Assembly (NCBI GenBank): GCA_014595895.1
Contig: JABUKB010000002.1
Location: forward strand, 152,770 to 184,769
Source: Lysinibacillus odysseyi
GTDB taxonomy: Bacteria; Bacillota; Bacilli; Bacillales_A; Planococcaceae
Length of the DNA: 32,000 bases
Reading direction: 5' to 3'
The translations under genes were made by a program, and so were the position numbers. Within the stretch, counting starts at the first letter, position 1. The number at the start of each line of letters is the position of its first letter. Shown here one piece after another: positions 18,871-28,370 of the stretch. The notes below the pieces were generated by a model. That model saw nothing but the letters and a program-made list of their open reading frames with translations, searched no databases and had not been told where the DNA came from.

Positions 18871-18912
18871 AAAAAATCGAGCGTTTAATAGCGCTCGATT
18901 TTTTGTTTTTTT
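18871..18912 (+). terminator. rho-independent terminator of cysH-sat-cysC
   Basis: Perfect 13-bp stem AAAAAATCGAGCG (18871-18883) / CGCTCGATTTTTT (18892-18904), with the T-run continuing to 18912. Confidence 0.7.
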
Positions 18913-18916
18913 CAAT

Positions 18917-18951
18917 ATAAAAAACCTCCTAATCGTTTTAATTAGAAGGTT
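18917..18951 (-). terminator. ssrA-type terminator hairpin left beyond the partial ssrA copy
   Basis: CCTCCTAAT (18925-18933) / ATTAGAAGG (18941-18949); on the minus strand it is followed by TTTTTT (complement of 18919-18924). A homologous hairpin sits downstream of the intact ssrA at 26572-26604. Confidence 0.55.
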
Positions 18952-19083
18952 AAATAAACTGCATTCAATTATATGTAATTCACCAAAAAGAAAAGACATT
19001 ATCCAATGGGTAATACACCCTTGAATAACACCTTAACTGTTAAAAACGTTGATATACCGCCATTTCTGACGACTACCTATGTA

Positions 19084-19183
19084 TGGAGACGGCGGGAGTC
19101 GAACCCGCGTCCAGAAACTCCAATACTCCAGCTTCTACGCGTGTAGTTTGCCTATTTGCAATTCGCGAGTCTTTATGCCGACA
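19084..19183. repeat. direct repeat: duplicated 3' end of ssrA (distal att site of the island)
   Basis: 19084-19171 is identical at all 88 nt to 26738-26825. 10 of the next 12 nt also match (TTTATGCCGACA vs CGTATGCCGACA). Confidence 0.92.
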
Positions 19184-19308
19184 CCTAGAACGACAAGGGT
19201 TTACACACTTTTTAGCCGCGCTCATTTCAACTATTTTTATCCACTAGGGAGTATTACATATTTACGAACTTGGTTCAAAGACCGTCGAGTTAATTGTACC
19301 ATACATAT

Positions 19309-20319
19309 TTATTTGTTAACGTGCTTATTTAACTCTTCTCGTACTATATCCCTTGTTAATTTTCCTAATACCTTCTTTTTATCATCTATGGGTTCATTAA
19401 ACAGAGAATTATGTAATTCTCTTTCATCTTTAAAAATTAAGGTATTAGAAAAAGCTAATTGTTGTAAATATACTTCGTTATAAATCAAGCCTTTTTTTAT
19501 AATATCTTGTACATAGAACTTATGAAATTCATTATAAATTTTTTCAAGATGAAATAATGTTATATTGCCCTTGATTTTTTTACCATAATACTCCTCTTTT
19601 TCATCATAATCAAAAATTATATTAAAATCTTCATTCACACCTAGTATAGTCGCTACATAATCTTCGAGACCTGAGTTATTATCAGATATAAGTTCTTCAG
19701 ATTTAACAATCTTTCTTTTTATGTTTATTCGTTCACTAATTTCTTTCTCAAATGGGGAATAATGCGTTCGCAAACTAACTGATTGTTTATTTTTTAAGTC
19801 TGAATTACAAACTTTACAAGATGGCACTAAGTTATACAACGAAAGTGCCAATAATGGATATGAGGCTTTATCAAAGAAATGGTCAAGAGTAGCACGTGTC
19901 CTTCCTTCGGAACTTTCATATATAAATGTAAACTGAGAATTACAATAAGGACATACCATTATCTCTAGTTCTTTTAAATATTTATATGCATTCCATTCTG
20001 CTGCTTTCCCAAAATATTTATATTCATCTATAAAAATTTCCAACTTATCTGAGATATATTTTTTATCTTCAACGGAAAGTGATTTTAACATCTTTTCATA
20101 TTGATTCACAGCAATATCCAATATTTCTAAATTACCAATGATAATCTCTTCTAAATTATCTAATATCCACCTAAAAACACGTTTAAGAACTACCTGTTTT
20201 TCTTCGTCAACAATCTTTTTTAACTTTTTATATAGCCTTTCATTCTTATTTTTGTTACTACCAAAAACTAATTTCTTATGACTTTCTAAAATAGTATCAT
20301 TTAAAATAAGTTCAATCAT
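19309..20319 (-). CDS. ptuB: HNH endonuclease-domain protein (PtuB-like, Septu-type partner)
   Basis: HNH motif CPYCNSQF-x14-ATLDHFFDKASYP-x9-NLVPSCKVCNSDLKNK in mid-protein. Preferred start is ATG 20319 (AGGTGA SD, complement of 20331-20336), which overlaps the upstream gene's stop as ATGATTGA. GTG 20334 (ORF-track start) is the alternative. Confidence 0.65.
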   Translation of the reverse strand: MIELILNDTILESHKKLVFGSNKNKNERLYKKLKKIVDEEKQVVLKRVFRWILDNLEEIIIGNLEILDIAVNQYEKMLKSLSVEDKKYISDKLEIFIDEYKYFGKAAEWNAYKYLKELEIMVCPYCNSQFTFIYESSEGRTRATLDHFFDKASYPLLALSLYNLVPSCKVCNSDLKNKQSVSLRTHYSPFEKEISERINIKRKIVKSEELISDNNSGLEDYVATILGVNEDFNIIFDYDEKEEYYGKKIKGNITLFHLEKIYNEFHKFYVQDIIKKGLIYNEVYLQQLAFSNTLIFKDERELHNSLFNEPIDDKKKVLGKLTRDIVREELNKHVNK

Positions 20320-22126
20320 GTGATTGGTTTTCACCTAGCTTTTTCAAATCATTTATTTTCATTTCAAAAATATCAATTAGTTCTATTAAATCTTGTGACT
20401 CAAATAACTTTAATTTACTTTTGTATATGTCATAAACCTTATTTCTTAAGATTGGTTCTCCTATTAAGTCAATAAATTTGATTATACTCTCTCTCTCTTT
20501 ATAAACTTTTGTTGGAGAAGCTTCTAAAAGCCATCTAATACAACTATTTATTCTTTCTTTTGCAAATTGCCCTATTAAACCTTCTTTAATGAAAAAAGAA
20601 TTTGATAGTAACTCACTTATATTAGCTGCAAAAGTTCTTGGACTTCCTTCTAGTTCTTTTATAGTATCATTATTTATTTCTTTTTCTTTTGTTAGGAAAG
20701 TAACATTAGTATTGGGAATATCAGATAATACGAATGGTGAATGTGTAGTAAGAATAACTTGTATATTTCCTTCAAAAATAACATCTACCATCTTAACAAA
20801 GTAATATAACCAATCCTTTTGTAACTGAGGGTGAAAGTATAAATCTCCTTCATCAATTAGCAATAAAAAGGAATCATATTCCCCTGGTTTTATTAACTTT
20901 TCTATTACATAAGCAAAACGAGAAAATAAAGTAAGAAAACTAAATTGACCACTACTTAATTCCAACCATGAAAATTTTAAAAACTCATAATCTAAAAACT
21001 CATCAATATATAAATTTATAAATTCTTTTGAATTAGATAATGTACCATCAATTTCTATGTATTCATACATCAAGTCTTCTCCAGTTAATAAATCCACACT
21101 ATAATCCGTTCGTAATTTTATTCTTAAATTTGAAAATAAATTATAGAGATTGAGATATCTATTTGCTAATACATCTACTTCTTTCATAAATTTTAAGCTG
21201 GCAAATAGTTCACTGGCTGATTCATTTATTTTATGCTTTATTAAATTCATAAAGTCTTTTTCACTTTTAGCATTTTTTATAGCTGATGATAAAATTTCTC
21301 GTAATTCTTCAAGAGAAATACCAATACTTGATTCTATAAGTATATTTTCAACTTCTAACATAAAACTTTCAATAAAGTTCAATTGGAAAACCTTTTTAAA
21401 ACTTGTACTTTTTTTAAGATTATTACTTCTAAATATATTTATTTCATAGTTATTTAGGTATCTATAATCTTTTCTTTTAGCGTTTACCTTGTTTTCAATT
21501 TTAATTCTTGAAGGTAACTCTATTATTCTATTGATATCATATTTATTTTTATATTTATTAACAAAGAAAATTTGTTTCTGTAATTCTTCATGTATAAATT
21601 CATTTACATTTTCATGTCTACTTAATAATGCATTTGTAGATATATTTACTATTTCATCAGTATCTTCTGAGAAATTGCTATTTAAATATCTTACATCAAA
21701 TATATTTGAAAAGAATATTGTTAAATAATTTGGGTGGTAAAAGTTTCTTGTTTCTATGTTGAATGTTTTATTCCCTAGAAATTCAATTTTCATATCATTT
21801 GAAAATCTGTAGTCTTTATATATTTTTTTATTATTCGAATAAATTATCAGATAATCATTTAATCCAGAATCGGTCATAAGGTTCACCAAAAAATCTAATA
21901 TAGTTGATTTACCCGAACCATTTTCCCCAACAAATGCAGATATATCAAAATTTCCAATACCACTATTTTTCAAACTATTTTTAAAAAAGTCCGATATGTA
22001 AATATCGTTCTCTTTTACTGTCAATGAATCATTCCCATCAAAATGAAAATTGTACCTACTTCCAAAATTAGCTTGAAAATTATTTATTGCTTTATATTTT
22101 TTAAACCATATAAATAGAATTTGCAT
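20312..22126 (-). CDS. ptuA: ABC/SMC-type ATPase (AAA_15/AAA_21-like; PtuA-like)
   Basis: 604 aa with GGAGGAG SD. Walker A GENGSGKST, ABC signature LSSGQ, Walker B LLLIDEGDLYFHP, H-loop ILTTHSP. A long, poorly conserved insert separates the N- and C-terminal ATPase halves. Confidence 0.7.
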   Translation of the reverse strand: MQILFIWFKKYKAINNFQANFGSRYNFHFDGNDSLTVKENDIYISDFFKNSLKNSGIGNFDISAFVGENGSGKSTILDFLVNLMTDSGLNDYLIIYSNNKKIYKDYRFSNDMKIEFLGNKTFNIETRNFYHPNYLTIFFSNIFDVRYLNSNFSEDTDEIVNISTNALLSRHENVNEFIHEELQKQIFFVNKYKNKYDINRIIELPSRIKIENKVNAKRKDYRYLNNYEINIFRSNNLKKSTSFKKVFQLNFIESFMLEVENILIESSIGISLEELREILSSAIKNAKSEKDFMNLIKHKINESASELFASLKFMKEVDVLANRYLNLYNLFSNLRIKLRTDYSVDLLTGEDLMYEYIEIDGTLSNSKEFINLYIDEFLDYEFLKFSWLELSSGQFSFLTLFSRFAYVIEKLIKPGEYDSFLLLIDEGDLYFHPQLQKDWLYYFVKMVDVIFEGNIQVILTTHSPFVLSDIPNTNVTFLTKEKEINNDTIKELEGSPRTFAANISELLSNSFFIKEGLIGQFAKERINSCIRWLLEASPTKVYKERESIIKFIDLIGEPILRNKVYDIYKSKLKLFESQDLIELIDIFEMKINDLKKLGENQSHD

Positions 22127-22624
22127 AGTTAATTACTCCTCCTAATAGAACCATTATACATTATTTCCCACGCACGAATTGTGCACAAAAAAATCACTGT
22201 GTATATTTTACATTCACTTATCCATAGTACAGCTCCCCCTATCCCCTAGGGTAGGGCTTATGCTATATTTCATTTGAACAATTTTGTATAATTACTAACT
22301 CAATTACATCTTGTATTAGTAGAACTATTTTATTTTTCAGTTACCATTTGCATTGCCTGAGATTTACCATTCAGTATCCCCCTTACCTTGATTCCTATTT
22401 GTTTAGTTGCCATGACTTTTAGTATTTCTTCTATATAGAGAACGCATGGATACTCTGATATCTTTTGAATATGGTTATGACAGGAGTTAAATACTTTTAT
22501 TGACAGTATATTGTTTAAAACTCTAATGGTAATTTAATTTATAACATTTTTACCAAAATTAATTAAAATATTATCTTTATTAATATATTATAAAGATAAA
22601 TATTTATTTAGGAGGAGAAATACT

Positions 22625-23269
22625 ATGATTTACAATACACATTCATTTAGGTATGGATTGGACTTATTCCAAACTAATCCACAGTTTACAGAGCTTTGGA
22701 ATGAAATTCAGTCTGTACTAGATAACATTACTGATCAGGATTTAATAAATTATTATAATGCTAATTCTAGAACATCAAAGAAAAGCCTATCCGAAGCTAT
22801 AAATACATTGATTGATGAACGATTAGTAGCATTACAATGGACTCGTCAAAGTCCAATATTTAATAATTCTGAGTATAGACCTACAAGTAGAAATAGATGG
22901 TGGACACTTGATTTCACAAAAGAATCTTTAGCGGTAGAAGTAGCATTTAATCATGGTGAAGCTGTAGCTTGGAATCTAATTAAACCTGTACTTTCGAGTG
23001 AATTAAATCATGTTGAAAAAGCAATTCAAACTCATGCCGGAGTAATAATTACGGCAAAAGATTCACTTAAACGTGCAGGGAATTTTGATAGTTCCATTGG
23101 CACTTACGAAAAATTCCTACAATACTTAGCGCCTTTTAGAAATATTTTATCGGTACCAATGGTAATTATCGGTCTAGATGCACCTGAAACATTTATTATT
23201 GACCGAACAACAAAAGAAGTTAGTTATATAGAACCACAATTAGAAACCCAATATAACCTATTTGATTAA
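22625..23269 (+). CDS. BglII/BamHI-family type II restriction endonuclease-like protein (214 aa), no cognate methyltransferase nearby
   Basis: GGAGGAG SD 7 nt upstream. As far as I recall BglII, similarity runs end to end: N-terminal NPQ..W.EI, WTLDFTKESLAVEVAF vs BglII TDIDFGKRDTLVEVQF (D-x8-E-x-Q/A catalytic spacing), and AGVIITAK / VPMVIIGL vs VAIIITKG / VPIRLVGL. Confidence 0.55.
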   Translation: MIYNTHSFRYGLDLFQTNPQFTELWNEIQSVLDNITDQDLINYYNANSRTSKKSLSEAINTLIDERLVALQWTRQSPIFNNSEYRPTSRNRWWTLDFTKESLAVEVAFNHGEAVAWNLIKPVLSSELNHVEKAIQTHAGVIITAKDSLKRAGNFDSSIGTYEKFLQYLAPFRNILSVPMVIIGLDAPETFIIDRTTKEVSYIEPQLETQYNLFD

Positions 23270-23271
23270 GT

Positions 23272-23330
23272 AAATAAAAATAAGCTGCCACTAGTTATAT
23301 AGACTAATGACAGCTTCTTTTATATTTTGG
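23272..23330. terminator. bidirectional terminator between the convergent nuclease genes
   Basis: Imperfect 14-bp stem (23282-23295 / 23301-23316) flanked by an A-run on the left and CTTTTATATTTT on the right. Confidence 0.5.
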
Positions 23331-24333
23331 CTCTATAAACAGTAGGCCGCAAGTTAAGTGAGTTTTCAAGGTTACCTTCTACTCTAAAAAACTTCCCTGA
23401 ATTTGATTTATGGTCATAATGATAGACTCTATACAATTCATAGTTACTTGGATACTCTGAAGAAAATGCCAGTTCATTTGCAGTTATTATAAAAGGTGTA
23501 TTAATGCCACCTTTTGTAGTTTTAACTTCAATATATAATGATGTGTTATCATCTTTAATTAGCTCTATATCGTATCCTGCGCCATCTCCTTCTATGACAG
23601 AAGTATGAATGACTTTATTTACATCATATCCCAGATTATTTATTAGATAATCTACAACCAGTAATTCCCCTTTTAGACCTAGTTCACGATTCCTTTCACC
23701 ATTCTCAGCATAATCAGGTTTGGAAGTATGAAAGTTTCTTGATGTATTACTTGTATCTAGCACCGGATTGGGCCTTTGGGTTTCAGTTAAATGGTCACTG
23801 GTAATATCATCATTTTGATTAATTAATGTATTTAGTGTTAAGTCCATTCTAGCTAATATACTAGAAGGAGGGATTTCCCAATCCACAATCTGCCATTTAA
23901 AATAAACCGGCTGTTCTCTTGTAATATCATGTGTTACATAGGCTAACCTTCCTAAATAAGTAAAAGGTTCAACTTGTTTAGTTAAATTATTTTTTTTCTT
24001 AGTTCTTAAGAAAAGGTATATATTATCTACTAAATGGTTATGGTTAATCAGTTGTAAAATTATCTCATTATTTAAAGTCTGTTTAGGTTGTGATTGCCAA
24101 GTCAATATACCATCTTCAGTAATACTTTCATCGAAATCATGCCCTAGTTGTTTTTGGCCAAATGTAACAAAAAACACAAAATCTTTTTTCCTTTTAGGAA
24201 TCTTAACAAGTCCATGTATTCCCCAAGTCCCTGATCCAGTTGTAAAAGAGGTTACACCATCAAATATCTTGTACACATCTTCTCTGGAATATTGTTCGTA
24301 TAACTTTAATGGTTTAACTGACAAAATCTTCAC
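23320..24333 (-). CDS. fusion protein: N-terminal DUF3427-like domain + C-terminal DUF3883-like PD-(D/E)xK nuclease domain (candidate modification-dependent nuclease)
   Basis: GTG start at 24333 with AGGAAAGG upstream. N-terminal half: YSREDVYKIF..FVFFVTFGQ..ILTWQSQPKQ..IYLFLRTKK..FTYLGRL..VYFKWQIVDWEIP matches my recollection of DUF3427. C-terminal half: LGLKGELLVVDYL..GAGYDIELIK..LYIEVKTTKG..FIITANELAFS..YELYRVY matches DUF3883 (D..EVK nuclease motif). Confidence 0.6.
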   Translation of the reverse strand: MKILSVKPLKLYEQYSREDVYKIFDGVTSFTTGSGTWGIHGLVKIPKRKKDFVFFVTFGQKQLGHDFDESITEDGILTWQSQPKQTLNNEIILQLINHNHLVDNIYLFLRTKKKNNLTKQVEPFTYLGRLAYVTHDITREQPVYFKWQIVDWEIPPSSILARMDLTLNTLINQNDDITSDHLTETQRPNPVLDTSNTSRNFHTSKPDYAENGERNRELGLKGELLVVDYLINNLGYDVNKVIHTSVIEGDGAGYDIELIKDDNTSLYIEVKTTKGGINTPFIITANELAFSSEYPSNYELYRVYHYDHKSNSGKFFRVEGNLENSLNLRPTVYRAKI

Positions 24334-24381
24334 CCTTTCCTATCTTCCCAATCACTATTTATCGTTCAGCGTCCTCTTATT

Positions 24382-24390
24382 ATTATAACA
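24382..24390 (-). promoter_or_regulatory. extended -10 element (TGTTATAAT) upstream of the DUF3427-DUF3883 gene
   Basis: The complement of 24382-24390 reads TGTTATAAT (TGnTATAAT consensus), about 50 nt upstream of the GTG start. Confidence 0.35.
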
Positions 24391-24436
24391 ACTTAAATAT
24401 CCAGTAAAAGTAGTAATAAGTACATTTGAATAAAAT

Positions 24437-24952
24437 TTATTCTAAACAATCAATAACTTCTTCGTACTCAGTATCTTCAAAGATATAAGTATCTGAATCG
24501 ACAAAAACTTTATCTACATAACAATTAACAGGATTATATACACACATACTATGATTTCCTCCCTTATTCAACTTCACAGCTTTTAATAATTTTTTACCAC
24601 CAAATTCCATATTAACTAATGATGTATTAACGGTTTTCCCCACCTGTTGCCTAGAAATACCCACTAACTCACCAATCTTTTCTTGTGAAATCCATGAATA
24701 TCCATCGTTATCAGTAAAACTTGCTATTACTAATAGAATTTTTAGAGCTGTGGGGGAAAGCTCCTTCAATCCCCCACTAGCTATATAATCCTTATCTAAA
24801 GAAACAAATACTTTGAATTTTTCCTGATCATTCTTATCTTGTGTACAGTATAATTTAATGAAAGGTTGTTGTTCTATTTCATCTTTTGTATATGTACTTG
24901 AAATATATTGTTTAGCTTTATTAATTAATTTATTATCAATCTTGTTAGCCAC
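24437..24952 (-). CDS. winged-helix/HTH DNA-binding protein (171 aa), island regulator or replication-initiator-like
   Basis: GTG start at 24952 with a GGAGG SD 8 nt upstream. LSPTALKILLVIASFTDNDGYSWISQEKIGELVGISRQQVGKTV is a typical wHTH segment of phage/plasmid Rep- or DnaD-like proteins. Acidic C-terminus. Confidence 0.5.
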   Translation of the reverse strand: MANKIDNKLINKAKQYISSTYTKDEIEQQPFIKLYCTQDKNDQEKFKVFVSLDKDYIASGGLKELSPTALKILLVIASFTDNDGYSWISQEKIGELVGISRQQVGKTVNTSLVNMEFGGKKLLKAVKLNKGGNHSMCVYNPVNCYVDKVFVDSDTYIFEDTEYEEVIDCLE

Positions 24953-24968
24953 TCTAAATTCCTCCTGT

Positions 24969-25304
24969 TTAATTACTAACTGCTAATTCAGAATAAATAA
25001 TGTAAACTGTATCACCTAACAATTGTTTTTCATCAACAATTTCCAAAACTGATACCCCAAACAATGTTTTATTAAGTAACTTATCATTTATAATTTCTAC
25101 TAAAGCATCTTCTTTCATTTTAGTAACTGCTAACAGGCTTTCTACATCTAAAATTCCATATCCATTATCATCACAATTTTTTAATATAGCTTTTGATACT
25201 GTAATACACTCATCTTCTAAATATTTATGTACAATACAATCATCAAAAAATTTCTCTAAAAATTCCTCATGTGTGTAACCTACATAATAATAATTTAATC
25301 CCAT
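24969..25304 (-). CDS. hypothetical acidic protein (111 aa)
   Basis: ATG at 25304 with an AGGAG SD. Its stop lies inside the SD region of the downstream wHTH gene, suggesting an operon. No family recognised. Confidence 0.45.
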   Translation of the reverse strand: MGLNYYYVGYTHEEFLEKFFDDCIVHKYLEDECITVSKAILKNCDDNGYGILDVESLLAVTKMKEDALVEIINDKLLNKTLFGVSVLEIVDEKQLLGDTVYIIYSELAVSN

Positions 25305-25361
25305 TTTGTAACAACTCCTAAATTTATTTATTGTGTTATTTTGATGCTTGGGCTTTATAAT

Positions 25362-25392
25362 CTTTATACTCTTTCAACCCTTTATACTCTTT
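25362..25392. repeat. 13-nt direct repeat x2 (CTTTATACTCTTT) with an 18-nt period
   Basis: Exact copies at 25362-25374 and 25380-25392, plus a degenerate third copy GCTTTATAATC at 25352-25362. They sit 58-90 nt upstream of the 111-aa ORF (minus strand). Confidence 0.7.
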
Positions 25393-25480
25393 AGTGTCAA
25401 CTTTCCTTTCCCCCTGACATAGCTATAATTAGATAATGATTTAAAAGTGTGACATCCAAATAAAAAAATATTGTAGAAAT

Positions 25481-25507
25481 AAAAAAGAACCTAACTGATT
25501 AGCTAGG
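25481..25507 (-). terminator. putative terminator of the integrase gene
   Basis: On the minus strand CCTAGCT-AATC-AGTTAGG forms a 7-bp stem with one G-U pair, followed by TTCTTTTTTA. Confidence 0.4.
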
Positions 25508-25596
25508 CTCTAGGGTATCCCCAGGGGGATGGGATGTCTCATTCTGATACAAAACAAGGCATTATTTATTTTTTGTAGTCTCGGATATTCTCCTGA

Positions 25597-26571
25597 TCAT
25601 AGATAATCGCGTAAATTAGTTGCTACTTCATTAACATCTAAATCAAGGTATTGTGTTGTTACCTCTAAATTTGAATGTCCTAATGCTTTTGAAATTAATG
25701 CAATACTTGCCCCCTTACTATACAAATTCTTTGCATATGCGCGGCGAATTGCGTGAGCATTGATATTCTCTAAATTGAACCGCTTTGCATACTTGTGTAG
25801 CTGCTTTGAAATAGCACAATTAGAGGATTTACTATTATTCATCGGTGAGCCATTTTGAGTAATAAATATATAGTGGTTATCCATATCAAAATGAGCGCGG
25901 ATGCCATTGTTTAATTGAATAAGTAGCTTTAACATTTCTACTACCTCCTCATCAATCGGGAGCTTTAAAAACTTATGATTCTTTAATGTAGAACCATCTA
26001 GGTTCAAACAAAAATTTTCAAAGTCGATATGACGTTCTCTCAGCTCTCCTAATGTACGAATACGGATACCTGTCTTATACATTAATTTAATAGCGGCGGC
26101 ATCCCTAAAACCAATAAAGGTTGTTTGGTCAATTAACTGTAAAAGCTTTTCTATATCAGATTGCCGCGCTCCCTTTTTTACTTCCTTATCAATTTTAATT
26201 TGAATGTTGCTCCAGAAACGGTCTTTTACCCATCCATTGTTATAAAACTTGCTCAGTACCGCTTTAATCGACTTCAAGCGTATTAGTTTAGTCGCGGGAG
26301 TAACCGCTAGCACATCTAAGTAATGATAGAGCTTATCCAAGTTAATATCCTCTACATACTCAATACGGCAAACTCCAACAAACTGTTTAAAAATATATTC
26401 ATAACTTTCAATTGTGCGTGGTCTATTTCCAGCGATACGCATTTGATTAAATACTGTATCAAGTGCATAACTAATCTGCATACAATCATCTCTTGCATCC
26501 TTACTATTGGATAGAACAACTACATCACCATTTACCGCGAATATACCATGTTTTCGCTTTCTATTTACCAT
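25597..26571 (-). CDS. int: tyrosine-type site-specific integrase
   Basis: 324 aa. Catalytic motifs TGIRIRTLGEL (Arg), HAIRRAYAKNL (His-x-x-Arg) and LGHSNLEVTTQYL (His...Tyr). Adjacent to the intact ssrA. Confidence 0.9.
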   Translation of the reverse strand: MVNRKRKHGIFAVNGDVVVLSNSKDARDDCMQISYALDTVFNQMRIAGNRPRTIESYEYIFKQFVGVCRIEYVEDINLDKLYHYLDVLAVTPATKLIRLKSIKAVLSKFYNNGWVKDRFWSNIQIKIDKEVKKGARQSDIEKLLQLIDQTTFIGFRDAAAIKLMYKTGIRIRTLGELRERHIDFENFCLNLDGSTLKNHKFLKLPIDEEVVEMLKLLIQLNNGIRAHFDMDNHYIFITQNGSPMNNSKSSNCAISKQLHKYAKRFNLENINAHAIRRAYAKNLYSKGASIALISKALGHSNLEVTTQYLDLDVNEVATNLRDYL

Positions 26572-26604
26572 AGAAAAAACCTCCTAATATGTTTTATTAG
26601 AAGG
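26572..26604 (-). terminator. terminator of the intact ssrA; its 3' arm contains the integrase SD
   Basis: CCTCCTAAT (26580-26588) / ATTAGAAGG (26596-26604). The minus strand reads ...ATTAGGAGGTTTTTTCTATG, so AGGAGG forms the hairpin's 3' arm and the U-tract is the spacer to the int ATG (26571). Confidence 0.55.
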
Positions 26605-26737
26605 TCTTTGAATAAGCTCAAAATATGTAATTTCCATAGGGATAAGAAAAGGGATATTCAACAAGAGTTCAACCCCCGTTCAATATCCCTAGTCTGTTAA
26701 AACGTTGAAATGACTGCATTTACAGCCACTTATGTAA

Positions 26738-26837
26738 TGGAGACGGCGGGAGTCGAACCCGCGTCCAGAAACTCCAATACTCCAGCTTCTACGCGTGTAG
26801 TTTGCCTATTTGCAATTCGCGAGTCCGTATGCCGACA
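26738..26837. repeat. direct repeat: 3' end of the intact ssrA (proximal att site)
   Basis: Partner of 19084-19183 (88 nt identical, then 10/12). Confidence 0.92.
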
Positions 26838-26966
26838 AACAGGCGTCTAGATCGCTAGCTTGGAAATCTCTTGACGGTGACTCAAGCGGCACCACCGACC
26901 GTATCCCACTAAAGTTGGGCCCGACGTACTCTACATGGGCGATAGAGAGGCCGAGCGCTTAAGAGC

Positions 26967-26999
26967 TTACGCTGCTAAAGCTAAGTTTTGTTGTTTGCC
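26967..26999 (-). other. tmRNA tag-peptide reading frame, (A)GKQQNLALAA-stop
   Basis: The minus strand reads GGC AAA CAA CAA AAC TTA GCT TTA GCA GCG TAA directly after AACT. This is the same context as the resume codon in B. subtilis ssrA. Confidence 0.85.
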
Positions 27000-27233
27000 A
27001 GTTATTATATAACTTCCGTTGTTGACGAAGACGAGACCTCCGACGCGCAACCAGAGCTTGAACCATCCCTGTCGAATCCGTAACGTCCCCGAGTATAAAA
27101 CCCGAGTAAAGTTCGGTTAAGCAAATGCTTATAAAGTGTACCGTATGAGTAGATACACACTGGCAATCTGTATACTCATTATATGTCAGATTAGGTGAAA
27201 CATCAAGTAATTGCTACGATGCAAATCTTGCCA

Positions 27234-27314: not shown

Positions 27315-28370
27315 CTACCAGGCTACTGCACGCTTTTTGCGAATCCATGCAATGACGATAACGAAGATTAACACAAACCCTAAGTACCCCATTGTGGAAT
27401 ATACTTTACCCACTAAGTTTGTAAAACCTACTAAACTAGCAGCAAAACCTAATAAGCCGACAATCATAACAGCCGGTTTAAAGGCTTTTGATTTTGGTGG
27501 GAAGAAACGAACTGTAAAGGTATAGAACATCCCTACTGCCGTATTGTACATCATCCCCAGAAGAGCGAAAGACATTAAGACGCCAATGAAGGGATGGATT
27601 TGATTCGCTAACTCTAGTGTCGGCATATCTACCCCGCCGATCACATCGATTTTTACGAACATCGTAATATTGATGAGAATAATGAGTGCTCCCAGGAGGA
27701 TACCACCAATGATTCCACCACGACCTGCTACTTTCCGGTCTTTTTCCTCGCCACCCATGATGATGAGTAAAGCCGCGCCTGCAGCGATATTGTATGATAC
27801 ATATAAAATCGATCCTAACAGCCAGTGATCAGCAGCGGAATTTTGTTCTTTGGCTAACGCATCTGCCTGGGACCATGAAATATCCATTGTAAATAACGAG
27901 TAAATTAAAATAATAAAAATAATCGCCAATAAATATGGGGTAACCACTGCGATAATATTAAGAATGTTTTTTAAGTCCAGGAGTAACGTACTGATTACGA
28001 ACGCCACCATGATGATGCTCCCTACCATTGACGGCATACCGAACATTTGGCTGAATGTAGAGCCCGCTCCCGCAAACATCACGACAGCTACGCCAAATAA
28101 GAAAAACGTAATGATAAAATCTAAAATGGTACCAAGATAACGACCACCGATTTTGTAAATTACACCCTTATGCGAAGATTGTTGTAAATCGGAACCGAGC
28201 TGCGCTAAAGTCATTCCTAAAAAGGCAAAGACAAATGCTGCAACAATCCCCCCCATTAGCCCCATTACTCCGAAGCTTGTAAAATACTGCATGATTTCTT
28301 GACCTGAGGCAAATCCTGCACCAACAATCAGACCTACAAAGGCACCGCCTATTTGTAAACTTTTTCTCAT
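27315..28370 (-). CDS. YkvI-family membrane transporter (putative amino-acid carrier)
   Basis: 351-aa polytopic protein. The N-terminus GAFVGLIVGAGFASGQEIMQYF matches the YkvI signature. Confidence 0.7.
   Translation of the reverse strand: MRKSLQIGGAFVGLIVGAGFASGQEIMQYFTSFGVMGLMGGIVAAFVFAFLGMTLAQLGSDLQQSSHKGVIYKIGGRYLGTILDFIITFFLFGVAVVMFAGAGSTFSQMFGMPSMVGSIIMVAFVISTLLLDLKNILNIIAVVTPYLLAIIFIILIYSLFTMDISWSQADALAKEQNSAADHWLLGSILYVSYNIAAGAALLIIMGGEEKDRKVAGRGGIIGGILLGALIILINITMFVKIDVIGGVDMPTLELANQIHPFIGVLMSFALLGMMYNTAVGMFYTFTVRFFPPKSKAFKPAVMIVGLLGFAASLVGFTNLVGKVYSTMGYLGFVLIFVIVIAWIRKKRAVAW

What the first reader, a model, noticed from the sequence alone, without database searches (positions are those of the whole stretch)
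19309..22126. Overlapping ABC-type ATPase + HNH nuclease pair: Septu-like but with atypical architecture
A 604-aa ATPase (GENGSGKST, LSSGQ, LLLIDEGDLYFHP, TTHSP) is followed by an HNH protein (CPYCN...LDHFFDKASYP...NLVPSCKVCNSDLKNK). The HNH gene's ATG overlaps the ATPase stop (ATGATTGA), implying translational coupling and fixed stoichiometry. ATPase-then-HNH is the PtuA/PtuB (Septu) arrangement. Two things look unusual. The HNH protein is large (336-341 aa), with about 125 aa before and 160 aa after the HNH core that I cannot assign. The ATPase has about 65 aa before Walker A and a roughly 300-aa unassignable insert between the ATPase half-sites. No reverse transcriptase or retron-like ncRNA accompanies it. 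It may be a divergent Septu subtype or a distinct ATPase-HNH system.
Basis: partly seen in the sequence, partly recalled or inferred. Interest (0 to 1): 0.7.

Follow-up and report, generated by a model that had tools for sequence, protein, structure and literature searches.

The report
Septu-like ATPase–HNH defence gene pair
This is an intact pair of genes, an ATP-binding protein followed by a DNA/RNA-cutting HNH enzyme, that belongs to a large, already catalogued but untested family of candidate anti-phage systems (PADLOC "PDC-M62", related to Septu) and rides on a small mobile island inserted in the tmRNA gene; it is a routine new member, not a new kind of system.

Summary
On the minus strand, a 604-aa ABC-type ATPase (20312-22126) is followed by a 336-aa HNH protein (19309-20319). 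All quoted motifs are present, and the genes overlap by 8 nt (ATGATTGA).

The "atypical architecture" is not atypical. Both proteins match the PADLOC candidate-system profiles PDC-M62A and PDC-M62B end to end (E 2.7e-176 and 8.1e-127). The HNH partner family has more than 3,000 cluster representatives of about the same length. The ATPase-then-HNH pair recurs in Bacillota, Campylobacterota and Bacteroidota.

A full-length B. cereus homologue pair is called "Septu" by DefenseFinder and PDC-M62 by PADLOC. Against canonical PtuA/PtuB models the window proteins match only the nucleotide-binding core and the HNH core, and they fail the NCBIfam cut-offs. This makes the pair a Septu-like sister clade, not an orthologue.

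No reverse transcriptase or retron RNA is present. The pair is cargo on a 7.65-kb, low-GC integrase island in ssrA.

The likely function is an ATP-regulated ATPase-nuclease anti-phage complex. That function is inferred, not shown.

Verdict: new member of a known kind; interest is low to moderate.

The parts
20312..22126 (-). ABC-type ATPase gene (604 aa), PADLOC PDC-M62A. Walker A is at 67-75 (K73), the signature LSSGQ at 390-394, Walker B at 421-426 (D425, E426) and the H-loop at H462. A helical insert spans about 164-332 and a C-terminal helical extension spans 520-602.
   Evidence: The ORF is. PDC-M62A matches at 2.7e-176 over residues 1-600 of 604. AAA_21 and AAA_15 score above the Pfam cut-offs. 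The AF2 model has pLDDT 82.3, and its best PDB folds are PtuA and AriA.
19309..20319 (-). HNH nuclease gene (336 aa from the ATG; an alternative GTG at 20334 gives 341 aa), PADLOC PDC-M62B. It has an N-terminal helical domain (8-118) and an HNH/zinc-finger core (C123, C126, D146-H147, N163, C168, C171, N172). These are followed by a small beta/alpha region (199-237) and a C-terminal helical domain (246-333).
   Evidence: The ORF is. PDC-M62B matches at 8.1e-127 over the full length. The AF2 model has pLDDT 89.9 and pTM 0.86. Pfam HNH scores 18.8 bits, below its 21.4 cut-off. Only the HNH core aligns to PtuB.
20312..20319 (-). 8-nt start/stop overlap ATGATTGA between the ATPase and HNH genes. 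An AGGTGA ribosome-binding motif lies at 20336-20331.
   Evidence: The sequence is. Five homologous loci (L001, L002, L021, L022, L025) also overlap by 8 nt. L016 and L020 overlap by 14 nt and L018 by 4 nt. L024 has a 1-nt gap instead.
22138..22160 (-). Likely expression signals of the operon: an extended -10-like TGTATAAT (22160-22153) and the ribosome-binding site AGGAGG (22143-22138), 11 nt before the ATG.
   Evidence: These were read from the sequence and are conserved in L. fusiformis. The generic promoter scan was uninformative in this AT-rich DNA: 27 sites found against 26 expected.
22175..22285 (-). Conserved non-coding block of about 110 nt upstream of the operon, containing three TGCACAA-like repeats and a G-rich motif. 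It probably belongs to the island backbone (a promoter/operator at the core-cargo junction).
   Evidence: Alignments are. The block is present in the L. fusiformis, Kurthia and Sporosarcina loci and partly in an L. capsici locus. It is absent from the B. cereus-group loci. There is no Rfam hit.
19083..19183 (.). attR: a displaced copy of the 3' end of the tmRNA gene (101-113 nt, 98% identical to 26737-26837) that closes the island just downstream of the HNH gene.
   Evidence: Direct repeat D1; alignment.
26735..27090 (-). Intact tmRNA gene (ssrA; tag GKQQNLALAA). Its 3' end (26737-26837) is attL of the 7.65-kb island.
   Evidence: ARAGORN; Rfam RF00023 at 195 bits; repeat.
25597..26571 (-). 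Tyrosine integrase of the island (324 aa).
   Evidence: Pfam Phage_integrase at 4.4e-29. It is 76% identical to the integrase next to the Kurthia gibsonii M62 pair.
18923..18951 (-). Intrinsic-terminator-like hairpin after attR, the first terminator-like site downstream of the HNH gene.

Best explanation
The two genes form one operon encoding a Septu-like, two-component candidate anti-phage system of the catalogued family PDC-M62. It is carried as cargo on a 7.65-kb integrase island inserted in the tmRNA gene.

Shown here:
- Both proteins are intact, full-length members of PDC-M62A/B.
- The ATPase has every catalytic ABC motif: Walker A K73, signature SSGQ, Walker B D425-E426 and H-loop H462.
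- The partner has a complete zinc-finger HNH site: CxxC...DH...N...CxxCN.
- The gene pair and its start/stop overlap are conserved across phyla.
- The pair sits among other defence-type genes on a horizontally acquired island.

Inferred by analogy with solved Septu and retron I-A PtuAB complexes:
- The ATPase oligomerises through its long helical insert.
- Its C-terminal helical extension docks a helical domain of the HNH protein.
- While nucleotide is bound, the complex holds the nuclease inactive.
- Phage infection (a phage protein, or a fall in ATP) releases or activates the HNH subunit.
- The nuclease then nicks DNA and/or cleaves a host tRNA, stopping phage replication, probably at the cost of host growth.

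The extra N-terminal helical domain and the divergent C-terminal domain of the HNH protein are the likeliest places for clade-specific partner binding or trigger sensing.
For: PADLOC gives PDC-M62A at 2.7e-176 (residues 1-600) and PDC-M62B at 8.1e-127 (residues 6-337 of the GTG form).

Motifs are invariant across 36 homologues of each protein.

The AF2 model of the ATPase finds PtuA of retron I-A (9n6b, 1.7e-9), Ec83 PtuA, AriA (PARIS) and E. coli Septu PtuA (8eea, 5e-6) as its best PDB folds. Sequence searches agree: PDB phmmer hits PtuA chains only.

The HNH profile's best PDB hit is the PtuB chain 9n69_F, but weakly (E 0.045) and over the HNH core only.

The B. cereus VD107 homologue pair EJR56168/EJR56169 is called Septu by DefenseFinder and PDC-M62 by PADLOC. 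EJR56169 is P0083, 32% identical over 100% of the window ATPase.

In every fetched locus with a near-full-length ATPase match, an M62B-type ORF follows immediately.

Context supports defence cargo. Island GC is 0.29 against 0.38-0.42 in the flanks, and the operon itself is 0.25. The island has att repeats and an integrase. Neighbouring genes are a PDC-S36-like gene and a BglII-like nuclease. Homologues lie in prophage-like elements, integrase islands and next to a type I RM system.

The Septu/PtuAB mechanism is taken from PMC12819146 and PMC13096335.
Against: No member of PDC-M62 was found to have been tested. PDCs are described by their authors as untested candidates, and 'PDC-M62' appears in only one held paper, a genome survey.

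The proteins fail the curated Septu cut-offs: NCBIfam PtuA 49.6 bits against 500, PtuB 16.4 against 150, and TIGR02646 17.8 against 52.15.

Profile-profile comparison with canonical PtuA/PtuB aligns only ATPase residues 387-471 and HNH-protein residues 99-202. The docking surfaces that define the solved complexes are therefore not demonstrably conserved.

The HNH protein's flanking domains match nothing in PDB, BFVD or Pfam.

Complex formation, nuclease activity, substrate and trigger are all inference.
Confidence: 0.7

Rival explanations
1. It is simply a canonical Septu system. The two proteins would be orthologues of PtuA and PtuB and would assemble and act exactly like the solved E. coli 6:2 horseshoe complex.
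For: The gene order and domain pair are the same. DefenseFinder labels full-length B. cereus homologues as Septu. PtuA chains are the best sequence and fold matches in the PDB. PADLOC PtuA/PtuB profiles give significant partial hits, at 2.6e-17 and 1.9e-8.
Against: The NCBIfam PtuA, PtuB and TIGR02646 scores are 3- to 10-fold below their cut-offs. A genuine canonical pair from locus L015 scores 439 and 255 bits full-length on PADLOC PtuA/PtuB, whereas the window pair scores 61 and 32 bits on fragments. hhalign finds no similarity outside the nucleotide-binding block and the HNH core. The HNH protein is about 90-110 aa longer than PtuB, with an extra N-terminal domain. AriA (PARIS) matches the ATPase fold about as well as PtuA does.
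Confidence: 0.15
2. It is a restriction-like, ATP-dependent nuclease that attacks foreign (for example modified) DNA directly and spares the host, rather than an abortive-infection complex.
For: The ATPase gives a partial hit to TIGR04435 'restriction system-associated AAA family ATPase' at 3.5e-13. One homologue of the HNH protein is named McrA-like by its source (P0173). The PDC-M62 family was discovered embedded in BREX, DISARM or type I RM loci, and the Chitinophaga homologue sits next to a type I RM system. Stand-alone PtuAB nicks DNA in vitro.
Against: The TIGR04435 score is 49 bits against a cut-off of 300. No methyltransferase or DNA-modification gene accompanies the pair in the fetched close-homologue loci other than L001 (L016-L025), whose gene tables I read. 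No modification-reading domain was detected in either protein.
Confidence: 0.1
3. It is a selfish stabilisation or inter-element competition module of the mobile island (toxin-like nuclease with an ATPase regulator), with no role against phages.
For: The pair is always found on mobile elements: integrase islands, prophage-like regions and megaplasmids. The Pfam AAA_21 family is named after the AbiEii toxin. Over-expressed Septu is toxic to its host.
Against: Carriage on mobile elements is equally typical of true defence systems. The nearest characterised relatives (Septu, retron I-A, PARIS) are all anti-phage systems. Nothing in the data points to plasmid or island maintenance.
Confidence: 0.05

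Closest known systems
PADLOC phage defence candidate PDC-M62 (M62A ATPase + M62B HNH protein; Payne et al., bioRxiv 10.1101/2024.01.29.577857)
   Same: Both proteins match the family profiles end to end at hundreds of bits. Lengths, gene order and adjacency are the same.
   Different: Nothing substantive. The family was defined from copies embedded in BREX, DISARM or type I RM loci, whereas this copy is cargo of an ssrA integrase island.
Septu PtuA/PtuB (stand-alone E. coli system, PDB 8EE4/8EEA; Septu Ec-B88)
   Same: The operon has a two-gene ATPase-then-HNH order. The ATPase is ABC-type with a long helical insert and a C-terminal helical extension. The nuclease is a zinc-finger HNH. PtuA is among the best fold matches. 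DefenseFinder labels homologues as Septu.
   Different: The ATPase is about 140 aa longer than the 465-aa E. coli PtuA (8EE4). The HNH protein is about 90-110 aa longer than PtuB: its catalytic His is at 147, against 57-75 in PtuB. Sequence similarity is confined to the catalytic cores, and the curated PtuA/PtuB cut-offs are not met.
Retron type I-A effector PtuAB (Ec78/Eco7, Ec83; PDB 9N69, 9NNH, 9E8Z)
   Same: These give the best PDB sequence and fold hits for the ATPase. The ATPase size (550 aa) and Walker A position are similar. The PtuB chain 9n69_F is the best, though weak, PDB hit of the HNH profile.
   Different: No reverse transcriptase, msr/msd RNA or retron-specific PtuA elements are present. 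The flanking domains of the HNH protein are unrelated.
PADLOC candidate PDC-M01 (ATPase + HNH)
   Same: The M62B protein hits M01B profiles over residues of about 53-281 (E about 1e-11), and the ATPase hits M01A (1e-12). In B. cereus, PADLOC also reports M01 as a duplicate call with Septu.
   Different: Scores are about tenfold lower than for M62, and M01B proteins are shorter (about 280 aa).
PARIS AriA, Gabija GajA and OLD-family ABC ATPases
   Same: They belong to the same ABC ATPase superfamily (AAA_15/AAA_21). AriA matches the model about as well as PtuA does, at 1e-8.
   Different: Their nuclease is a TOPRIM domain or partner (AriB, GajA C-terminus, OLD), not an HNH protein. No TOPRIM was detected here.

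Membership tests
PADLOC PDC-M62 | ATPase matches a PDC-M62A profile over its full length | tested here: met
   PDLC04734 at 2.7e-176, 586 bits, protein residues 1-600 against profile 1-595 of 597.
PADLOC PDC-M62 | Partner matches a PDC-M62B profile over its full length | tested here: met
   PDLC04742 at 8.1e-127, 421 bits, profile 1-336 of 337.
PADLOC PDC-M62 | The two genes are adjacent on the same strand | tested here: met
   They overlap by 8 nt on the minus strand.
Septu (PtuA/PtuB) | ATPase reaches the curated PtuA model cut-off (NCBIfam NF041760, 500 bits) or matches a PADLOC PtuA profile over its full length | tested here: not met
   NF041760 scores 49.6 bits. The best PADLOC PtuA hit scores 61.5 bits, in two fragments. 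A control canonical PtuA (L015) scores 439 bits full-length. hhalign aligns only residues 387-471.
Septu (PtuA/PtuB) | Nuclease reaches the PtuB or TIGR02646 cut-offs | tested here: not met
   NF041761 scores 16.4 against 150, and TIGR02646 scores 17.8 against 52.15. The best PADLOC PtuB hit scores 32 bits. A control PtuB scores 255 bits. hhalign aligns only residues 99-202, at probability 46%.
Septu (PtuA/PtuB) | ABC ATPase with intact Walker A, signature, Walker B and H-loop | tested here: met
   G67, G72, K73, S391, G393, D425, E426 and H462 are invariant in 36 homologues; motif positions are.
Septu (PtuA/PtuB) | HNH (beta-beta-alpha-metal) active site in the second protein | tested here: met
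   C123, C126, D146, H147, N163, C168, C171 and N172 are invariant. Pfam HNH gives 0.0019, below its cut-off, for the window protein but reaches 4.9e-7 in homologues. Weak structural hits go to phage HNH enzymes.
Septu (PtuA/PtuB) | Called Septu by DefenseFinder | not testable with these tools
   DefenseFinder could not be run. The full-length homologue pair EJR56168/EJR56169 of B. cereus VD107 is so called in PMC11811056 supplementary data.
Septu (PtuA/PtuB) | PtuA oligomer binds PtuB through the PtuA C-terminal extension, and the nuclease is inhibited by ATP | not testable with these tools
   Monomer models show a C-terminal helical extension on the ATPase (520-602) and helical domains on the HNH protein. 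No multimer prediction or biochemistry was available.
Septu (PtuA/PtuB) | Protects against phage, dependent on both active sites | not testable with these tools
   This needs an experiment. I found no published test of any M62-type pair.
Retron type I-A (Ec78/Eco7) | Reverse transcriptase gene and msr/msd non-coding RNA next to the ATPase-HNH pair | tested here: not met
   The island ORFs are an integrase, an HTH_36 protein, a DUF3427/NOV_C protein, a BglII-like nuclease and one 111-aa ORF without a hit. None is a reverse transcriptase. Rfam found only the tmRNA in the window and nothing in 22100-22650. No reverse transcriptase appears in the homologous loci whose gene tables were read.
Gabija / OLD / PARIS | TOPRIM nuclease domain or partner (plus a helicase for Gabija) | tested here: not met
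   There is no TOPRIM or helicase hit in either protein or in adjacent genes. GajA and AriA profiles match only the ATPase core.

The most novel reading that the evidence does not exclude
PDC-M62 may not be just 'long Septu'. It could be a mechanistically separate ATPase-HNH clade. In that reading, the HNH protein's extra N-terminal helical domain and unrelated C-terminal domain, which have no match in PDB, BFVD or Pfam, build a different complex from the PtuAB horseshoe. They would then sense a different trigger or cut a different substrate. The family may also never have been tested experimentally. Separately, the conserved ~110-nt non-coding block upstream could be a regulatory element of a family of small ssrA/integrase islands that swap defence cargo.
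Probability: 0.3. Interest if true: 0.45.

Novelty: new member of a known kind. Interest (0 to 1): 0.25.

Why it matters
For genome annotation, the result shows that this pair needs no new category. It should be labelled PDC-M62 (Septu-like).

It also exposes a naming conflict. DefenseFinder calls this clade Septu, while PADLOC keeps it as an untested candidate. NCBI annotates its members only as 'AAA family ATPase' and 'hypothetical protein'.

The clade is large, with more than 3,000 50%-identity clusters of the HNH partner, and it has no solved structure. As far as I could find it also has no direct phage test. One experiment on a member like this would therefore settle how far Septu mechanisms extend.

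If the extra HNH-protein domains prove to be trigger sensors, that would add a variant to the ATPase-nuclease defence theme. The gain is modest, because the general principle is already established for Septu, retron I-A, Gabija and PARIS.

Tried and rejected
- **Retron association: rejected.** There is no reverse transcriptase among the island ORFs, and Rfam found only the tmRNA.
- **Frameshift or decay: rejected.** Both proteins align end to end with the family profiles and with homologues.
- **GTG start (341 aa): rejected** in favour of the ATG (336 aa), on homologue N-termini and profile coordinates.
- **Whether the Septu systems tested by Doron et al. 2018 are M62-type: unresolved.** These are the systems from B. 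thuringiensis HD12 and B. weihenstephanensis KBAB4.
  - The Doron paper and the Li et al. 2024 structure paper are not held.
  - Text searches gave no sequences.
  - About 30 B. cereus-group clusters of this family carry no 'Septu protein' name or KBAB4 accession.
- **Genome-contig scan:** These still served as evidence of pair conservation and as canonical-Septu controls.
- **Promoter scan:** uninformative in AT-rich DNA.
- **Inverted repeats in the upstream intergenic region:** only AT-rich chance pairs.
- **The look-up of encoding contigs for the window protein itself:** no record, so the source organism is inferred only. It looks Lysinibacillus-like: the tmRNA tag differs by one residue from L. 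fusiformis, and the best homologues are 75-76% identical.
Full report
**Observation.** The two ORFs are real and lie on the minus strand: an ATPase gene at 20312-22126 (604 aa) and an HNH gene at 19309-20319 (336 aa from the ATG; a GTG 15 nt upstream would give 341 aa). In the partner, CPYCN is at 123-127, LDHFFDKASYP at 145-155 and NLVPSCKVCNSDLKNK at 163-178. The HNH ATG and the ATPase TGA form ATGATTGA, an 8-nt overlap. An AGGTGA motif lies 11 nt upstream of that ATG, and an AGGAGG site lies 11 nt before the ATPase ATG. In DNA of this composition (25% GC; stop probability 0.10 per codon), open frames of 604 and 336 codons have chance probabilities of about 2e-28 and 4e-16. Homologues all start MIE/MIK and the family profile starts at the ATG, so 336 aa is the correct length.

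**What family it is.** Against PADLOC-DB, the ATPase matches PDC-M62A over residues 1-600 (E 2.7e-176, 586 bits). The partner matches PDC-M62B over the whole profile (E 8.1e-127, 421 bits). PDC stands for 'phage defence candidate': 145 untested single-gene (S) and multi-gene (M) candidates, predicted because copies are embedded inside BREX, DISARM or type I RM loci (bioRxiv 10.1101/2024.01.29.577857).

Pfam sees only AAA_21 and AAA_15 in the ATPase, and a sub-threshold HNH hit (18.8 against 21.4 bits) in the partner.

The lengths that looked atypical are the family norm. ATPase homologues are about 570-670 aa, and partners mostly about 300-360 aa. A profile of the partner finds 3,106 representatives of 50%-identity clusters at E <= 1e-30; most of the best 150 are near full length. 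B. cereus-group members give the same PADLOC pattern as the window proteins.

**Relation to Septu.** A survey of 6,354 B. cereus-group genomes reports that PADLOC called the same proteins both Septu and PDC-M62 203 times. It also reports that DefenseFinder's Septu calls coincide with PADLOC's PDC-M62 calls (PMC11811056). One such pair, EJR56168.1/EJR56169.1 of B. cereus VD107, contains P0083, a homologue 32% identical to the window ATPase over its full length. One standard tool therefore already files this clade under Septu.

Tested directly, membership in Septu in the strict sense fails:
- NCBIfam PtuA scores 49.6 bits against a 500 cut-off, PtuB 16.4 against 150, and TIGR02646 17.8 against 52.15.
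- PADLOC PtuA/PtuB profiles hit only fragments, at 61 and 32 bits.
- A canonical Septu pair found in locus L015 scores 439 and 255 bits full-length on those same profiles.
- hhalign against canonical sequences aligns only the signature/Walker B/H-loop block of the ATPase (387-471; 97.5% probability). For the partner it aligns only the HNH core (99-202; 46% probability, E 2e-4).
- In the PDB, the ATPase hits only PtuA chains by sequence, motif regions only. The partner's profile hits the PtuB chain 9n69_F weakly (E 0.045), again over the HNH core.

**Structure predictions.** The ATPase model (pLDDT 82.3) shows:
- an N-terminal beta-sheet leading into Walker A;
- a long helical insert (about 164-332);
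- the second ATPase lobe;
- a five-helix C-terminal extension (520-602).

Its best PDB folds are retron I-A PtuA (1.7e-9), Ec83 PtuA, PARIS AriA (1e-8) and E. coli Septu PtuA (5e-6 to 9e-5). TM-scores are low (0.2-0.3), as expected for flexible multi-domain proteins. The 'insert' and the pre-Walker A segment are thus ordinary for this ATPase clade. The retron PtuA chain 9n69_A (552 aa) has Walker A near residue 85 and the signature motif near 356.

The HNH protein model is confident (pLDDT 89.9, pTM 0.86). It has:
- an N-terminal helical bundle (8-118);
- the zinc-finger HNH core (about 120-176);
- a small beta/alpha element (199-237);
- a C-terminal helical domain (246-333).

Foldseek finds nothing for it in the PDB and only weak phage HNH cores in BFVD. 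Pfam scans of 36 family members find only HNH. The flanking domains are conserved within the family (invariant P189, Y262, K320; KLTRDI motif), but they have no known relatives.

**Conservation of the pair.** In every fetched locus where the ATPase matches nearly full-length, an M62B-type ORF follows immediately. These loci come from Lysinibacillus, B. cereus group, Kurthia, Sporosarcina, Clostridium, Sulfurimonas, Sulfuricurvum, Campylobacteraceae, Mucilaginibacter, Draconibacterium and Chitinophaga. In the eight distinct close-homologue loci with gene tables, the genes overlap by 4, 8 or 14 nt in seven and are separated by 1 nt in the eighth. No third conserved gene and no reverse transcriptase accompany it in the close-homologue loci whose gene tables I read (L001-L003, L016-L025). 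Contexts are mobile or defence-related:
- an smpB/tmRNA-linked island with RM and Mrr-like genes (L001);
- a prophage-like region with an integrase and Abi_alpha (L016);
- integrase mini-islands (L018, L025);
- a site next to a type I RM system (L020);
- B. cereus-group megaplasmids.

**Genomic setting in the window.** An intact tmRNA gene (26735-27090, minus strand) is followed by a 7.65-kb segment of 29% GC, against 38-42% in the flanks; the operon itself is 25%. The segment is bounded by a 101-113-nt direct repeat of the tmRNA 3' end, 19083-19183 and 26737-26837, 98% identical. In order, it encodes:
- a tyrosine integrase;
- a 111-aa ORF;
- an HTH_36 protein;
- a DUF3427/NOV_C protein that matches PADLOC PDC-S36;
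- a BglII/BstYI-like nuclease with no methyltransferase nearby;
- the M62 operon.

The flanks carry housekeeping genes: sulfate assimilation on one side, and enolase-superfamily, GNAT, M20 peptidase and SIS genes on the other. The pair is therefore cargo of an ssrA-integrated defence island.

**Most likely mechanism.** The shown facts are intact catalytic motifs in both proteins, a conserved operon, and a defence-island context. The rest is inferred from characterised relatives.
- In stand-alone Septu, a PtuA hexamer holds two PtuB subunits. ATP binding inhibits DNA nicking, and phage proteins or falling ATP are proposed to activate the nuclease.
- In retron I-A, PtuB docks through its helical C-terminal domain onto the C-terminal extension of a PtuA dimer, and activation leads to tRNA-Tyr loss (PMC12819146).
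- An E. coli Septu needs Walker A/B and HNH residues for defence, and acts by cleaving tRNA-Tyr (PMC13096335).

By analogy, the M62 ATPase would oligomerise through its helical insert and hold the HNH protein through helical domains. It would release or activate the nuclease on infection. The extra N-terminal domain of the HNH protein is the obvious candidate for a clade-specific interface or sensor. The overlap supports coupled translation but not a 1:1 ratio, since solved complexes are 6:2 and 4:2.

**Rivals.** I considered four:
- strict orthology to Septu (defining thresholds tested and not met);
- a restriction-like nuclease that targets foreign DNA directly (only a weak TIGR04435 hit, and no modification genes);
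- a selfish island-maintenance module (no specific support);
- a decayed pair (excluded by full-length matches).

**Novelty and verdict.** The finding is genuine but ordinary: a new member of a catalogued family. The difference, however, is the defining character of PDC-M62, not a peculiarity of this locus.

Some questions remain open. The clade has no solved structure and, in the literature I could search, no direct phage test. I could not establish whether the Bacillus Septu systems tested in 2018 belong to it.

Noticed in passing
window 19083-26837 (att repeats 19083-19183 and 26737-26837; tmRNA 26735-27090): A 7.65-kb low-GC island (29% against 38-42% in the flanks) is integrated into the 3' end of the tmRNA gene. 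It is bounded by a 101-113-nt direct repeat (98% identical) and has an intact 324-aa tyrosine integrase at 25597-26571. The island also brings its own terminator-like copy: 26564-26605 is 83% identical to 18909-18950.
   Followed up: yes
window 22175-22285 (minus strand); L001:9835-9960, L018:5805-5935, L025:4515-4640, L024:4835-4945: A ~110-nt non-coding block with three TGCACAA-like repeats and a CCxxGGGGGACxGGGGG motif is conserved upstream of the operon in four genera, even though the ATPases there are only 38-76% identical. It is absent from the B. cereus-group M62 loci. In Sporosarcina it sits about 380 nt from the ATPase start, just after a 57-aa ORF. It therefore seems to belong to the island backbone, perhaps as a promoter/operator at the core-cargo junction. 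There is no Rfam match.
   Followed up: partly
window 25597-26571 (-); L018:3893-4867; L025:1794-2768: The island integrase is 76% identical to a 324-aa integrase that lies just upstream of the M62 pair in Kurthia gibsonii. A 324-aa integrase also precedes the pair in Sporosarcina ureae. This suggests a family of small integrase islands in these Bacillales that carry exchangeable defence cargo.
   Followed up: partly
window 23320-24333 (-): A 337-aa protein has an N-terminal DUF3427 part and a C-terminal NOV_C (DUF3883-like) domain. Its C-terminal half matches the untested PADLOC candidate PDC-S36 (1.5e-37) and the C-terminus of TmtA profiles. It is probably a second defence-type cargo gene of the island.
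   Followed up: partly
window 22625-23269 (+): A 214-aa BglII/BstYI-like restriction endonuclease homologue (Pfam Endonuc-BglII 1.9e-12; PDB BstYI 0.019) is transcribed divergently from the M62 operon. No DNA methyltransferase gene is present in the island. It has no PADLOC hit. Whether a cognate methylase lies elsewhere, or the protein is not a classical restriction enzyme, was not examined.
   Followed up: partly
window 24437-25304 (-): Two small island genes are unassigned. One is a 171-aa HTH_36 protein, possibly the island's regulator or replication initiator; the Kurthia island has a DnaD_N/HTH_36 protein at the same place, but the two are not similar in sequence. The other is a 111-aa ORF with no hit in Pfam or PADLOC.
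   Followed up: partly
window 27315-28370 (-): The gene immediately upstream of the tmRNA gene is a 351-aa ORF with no Pfam hit, not smpB. In the related L. fusiformis locus, smpB sits directly before the tmRNA gene. I did not look further.
   Followed up: no
L015:7251-9282 and L013:6954-9221: The distant loci fetched with the ATPase alignment include canonical Septu pairs: PtuA of 431-493 aa plus a TIGR02646-type PtuB of 244-260 aa, from a Terracidiphilus and a Crocinitomicaceae MAG. I used them here as positive controls for the Septu profiles.
   Followed up: yes
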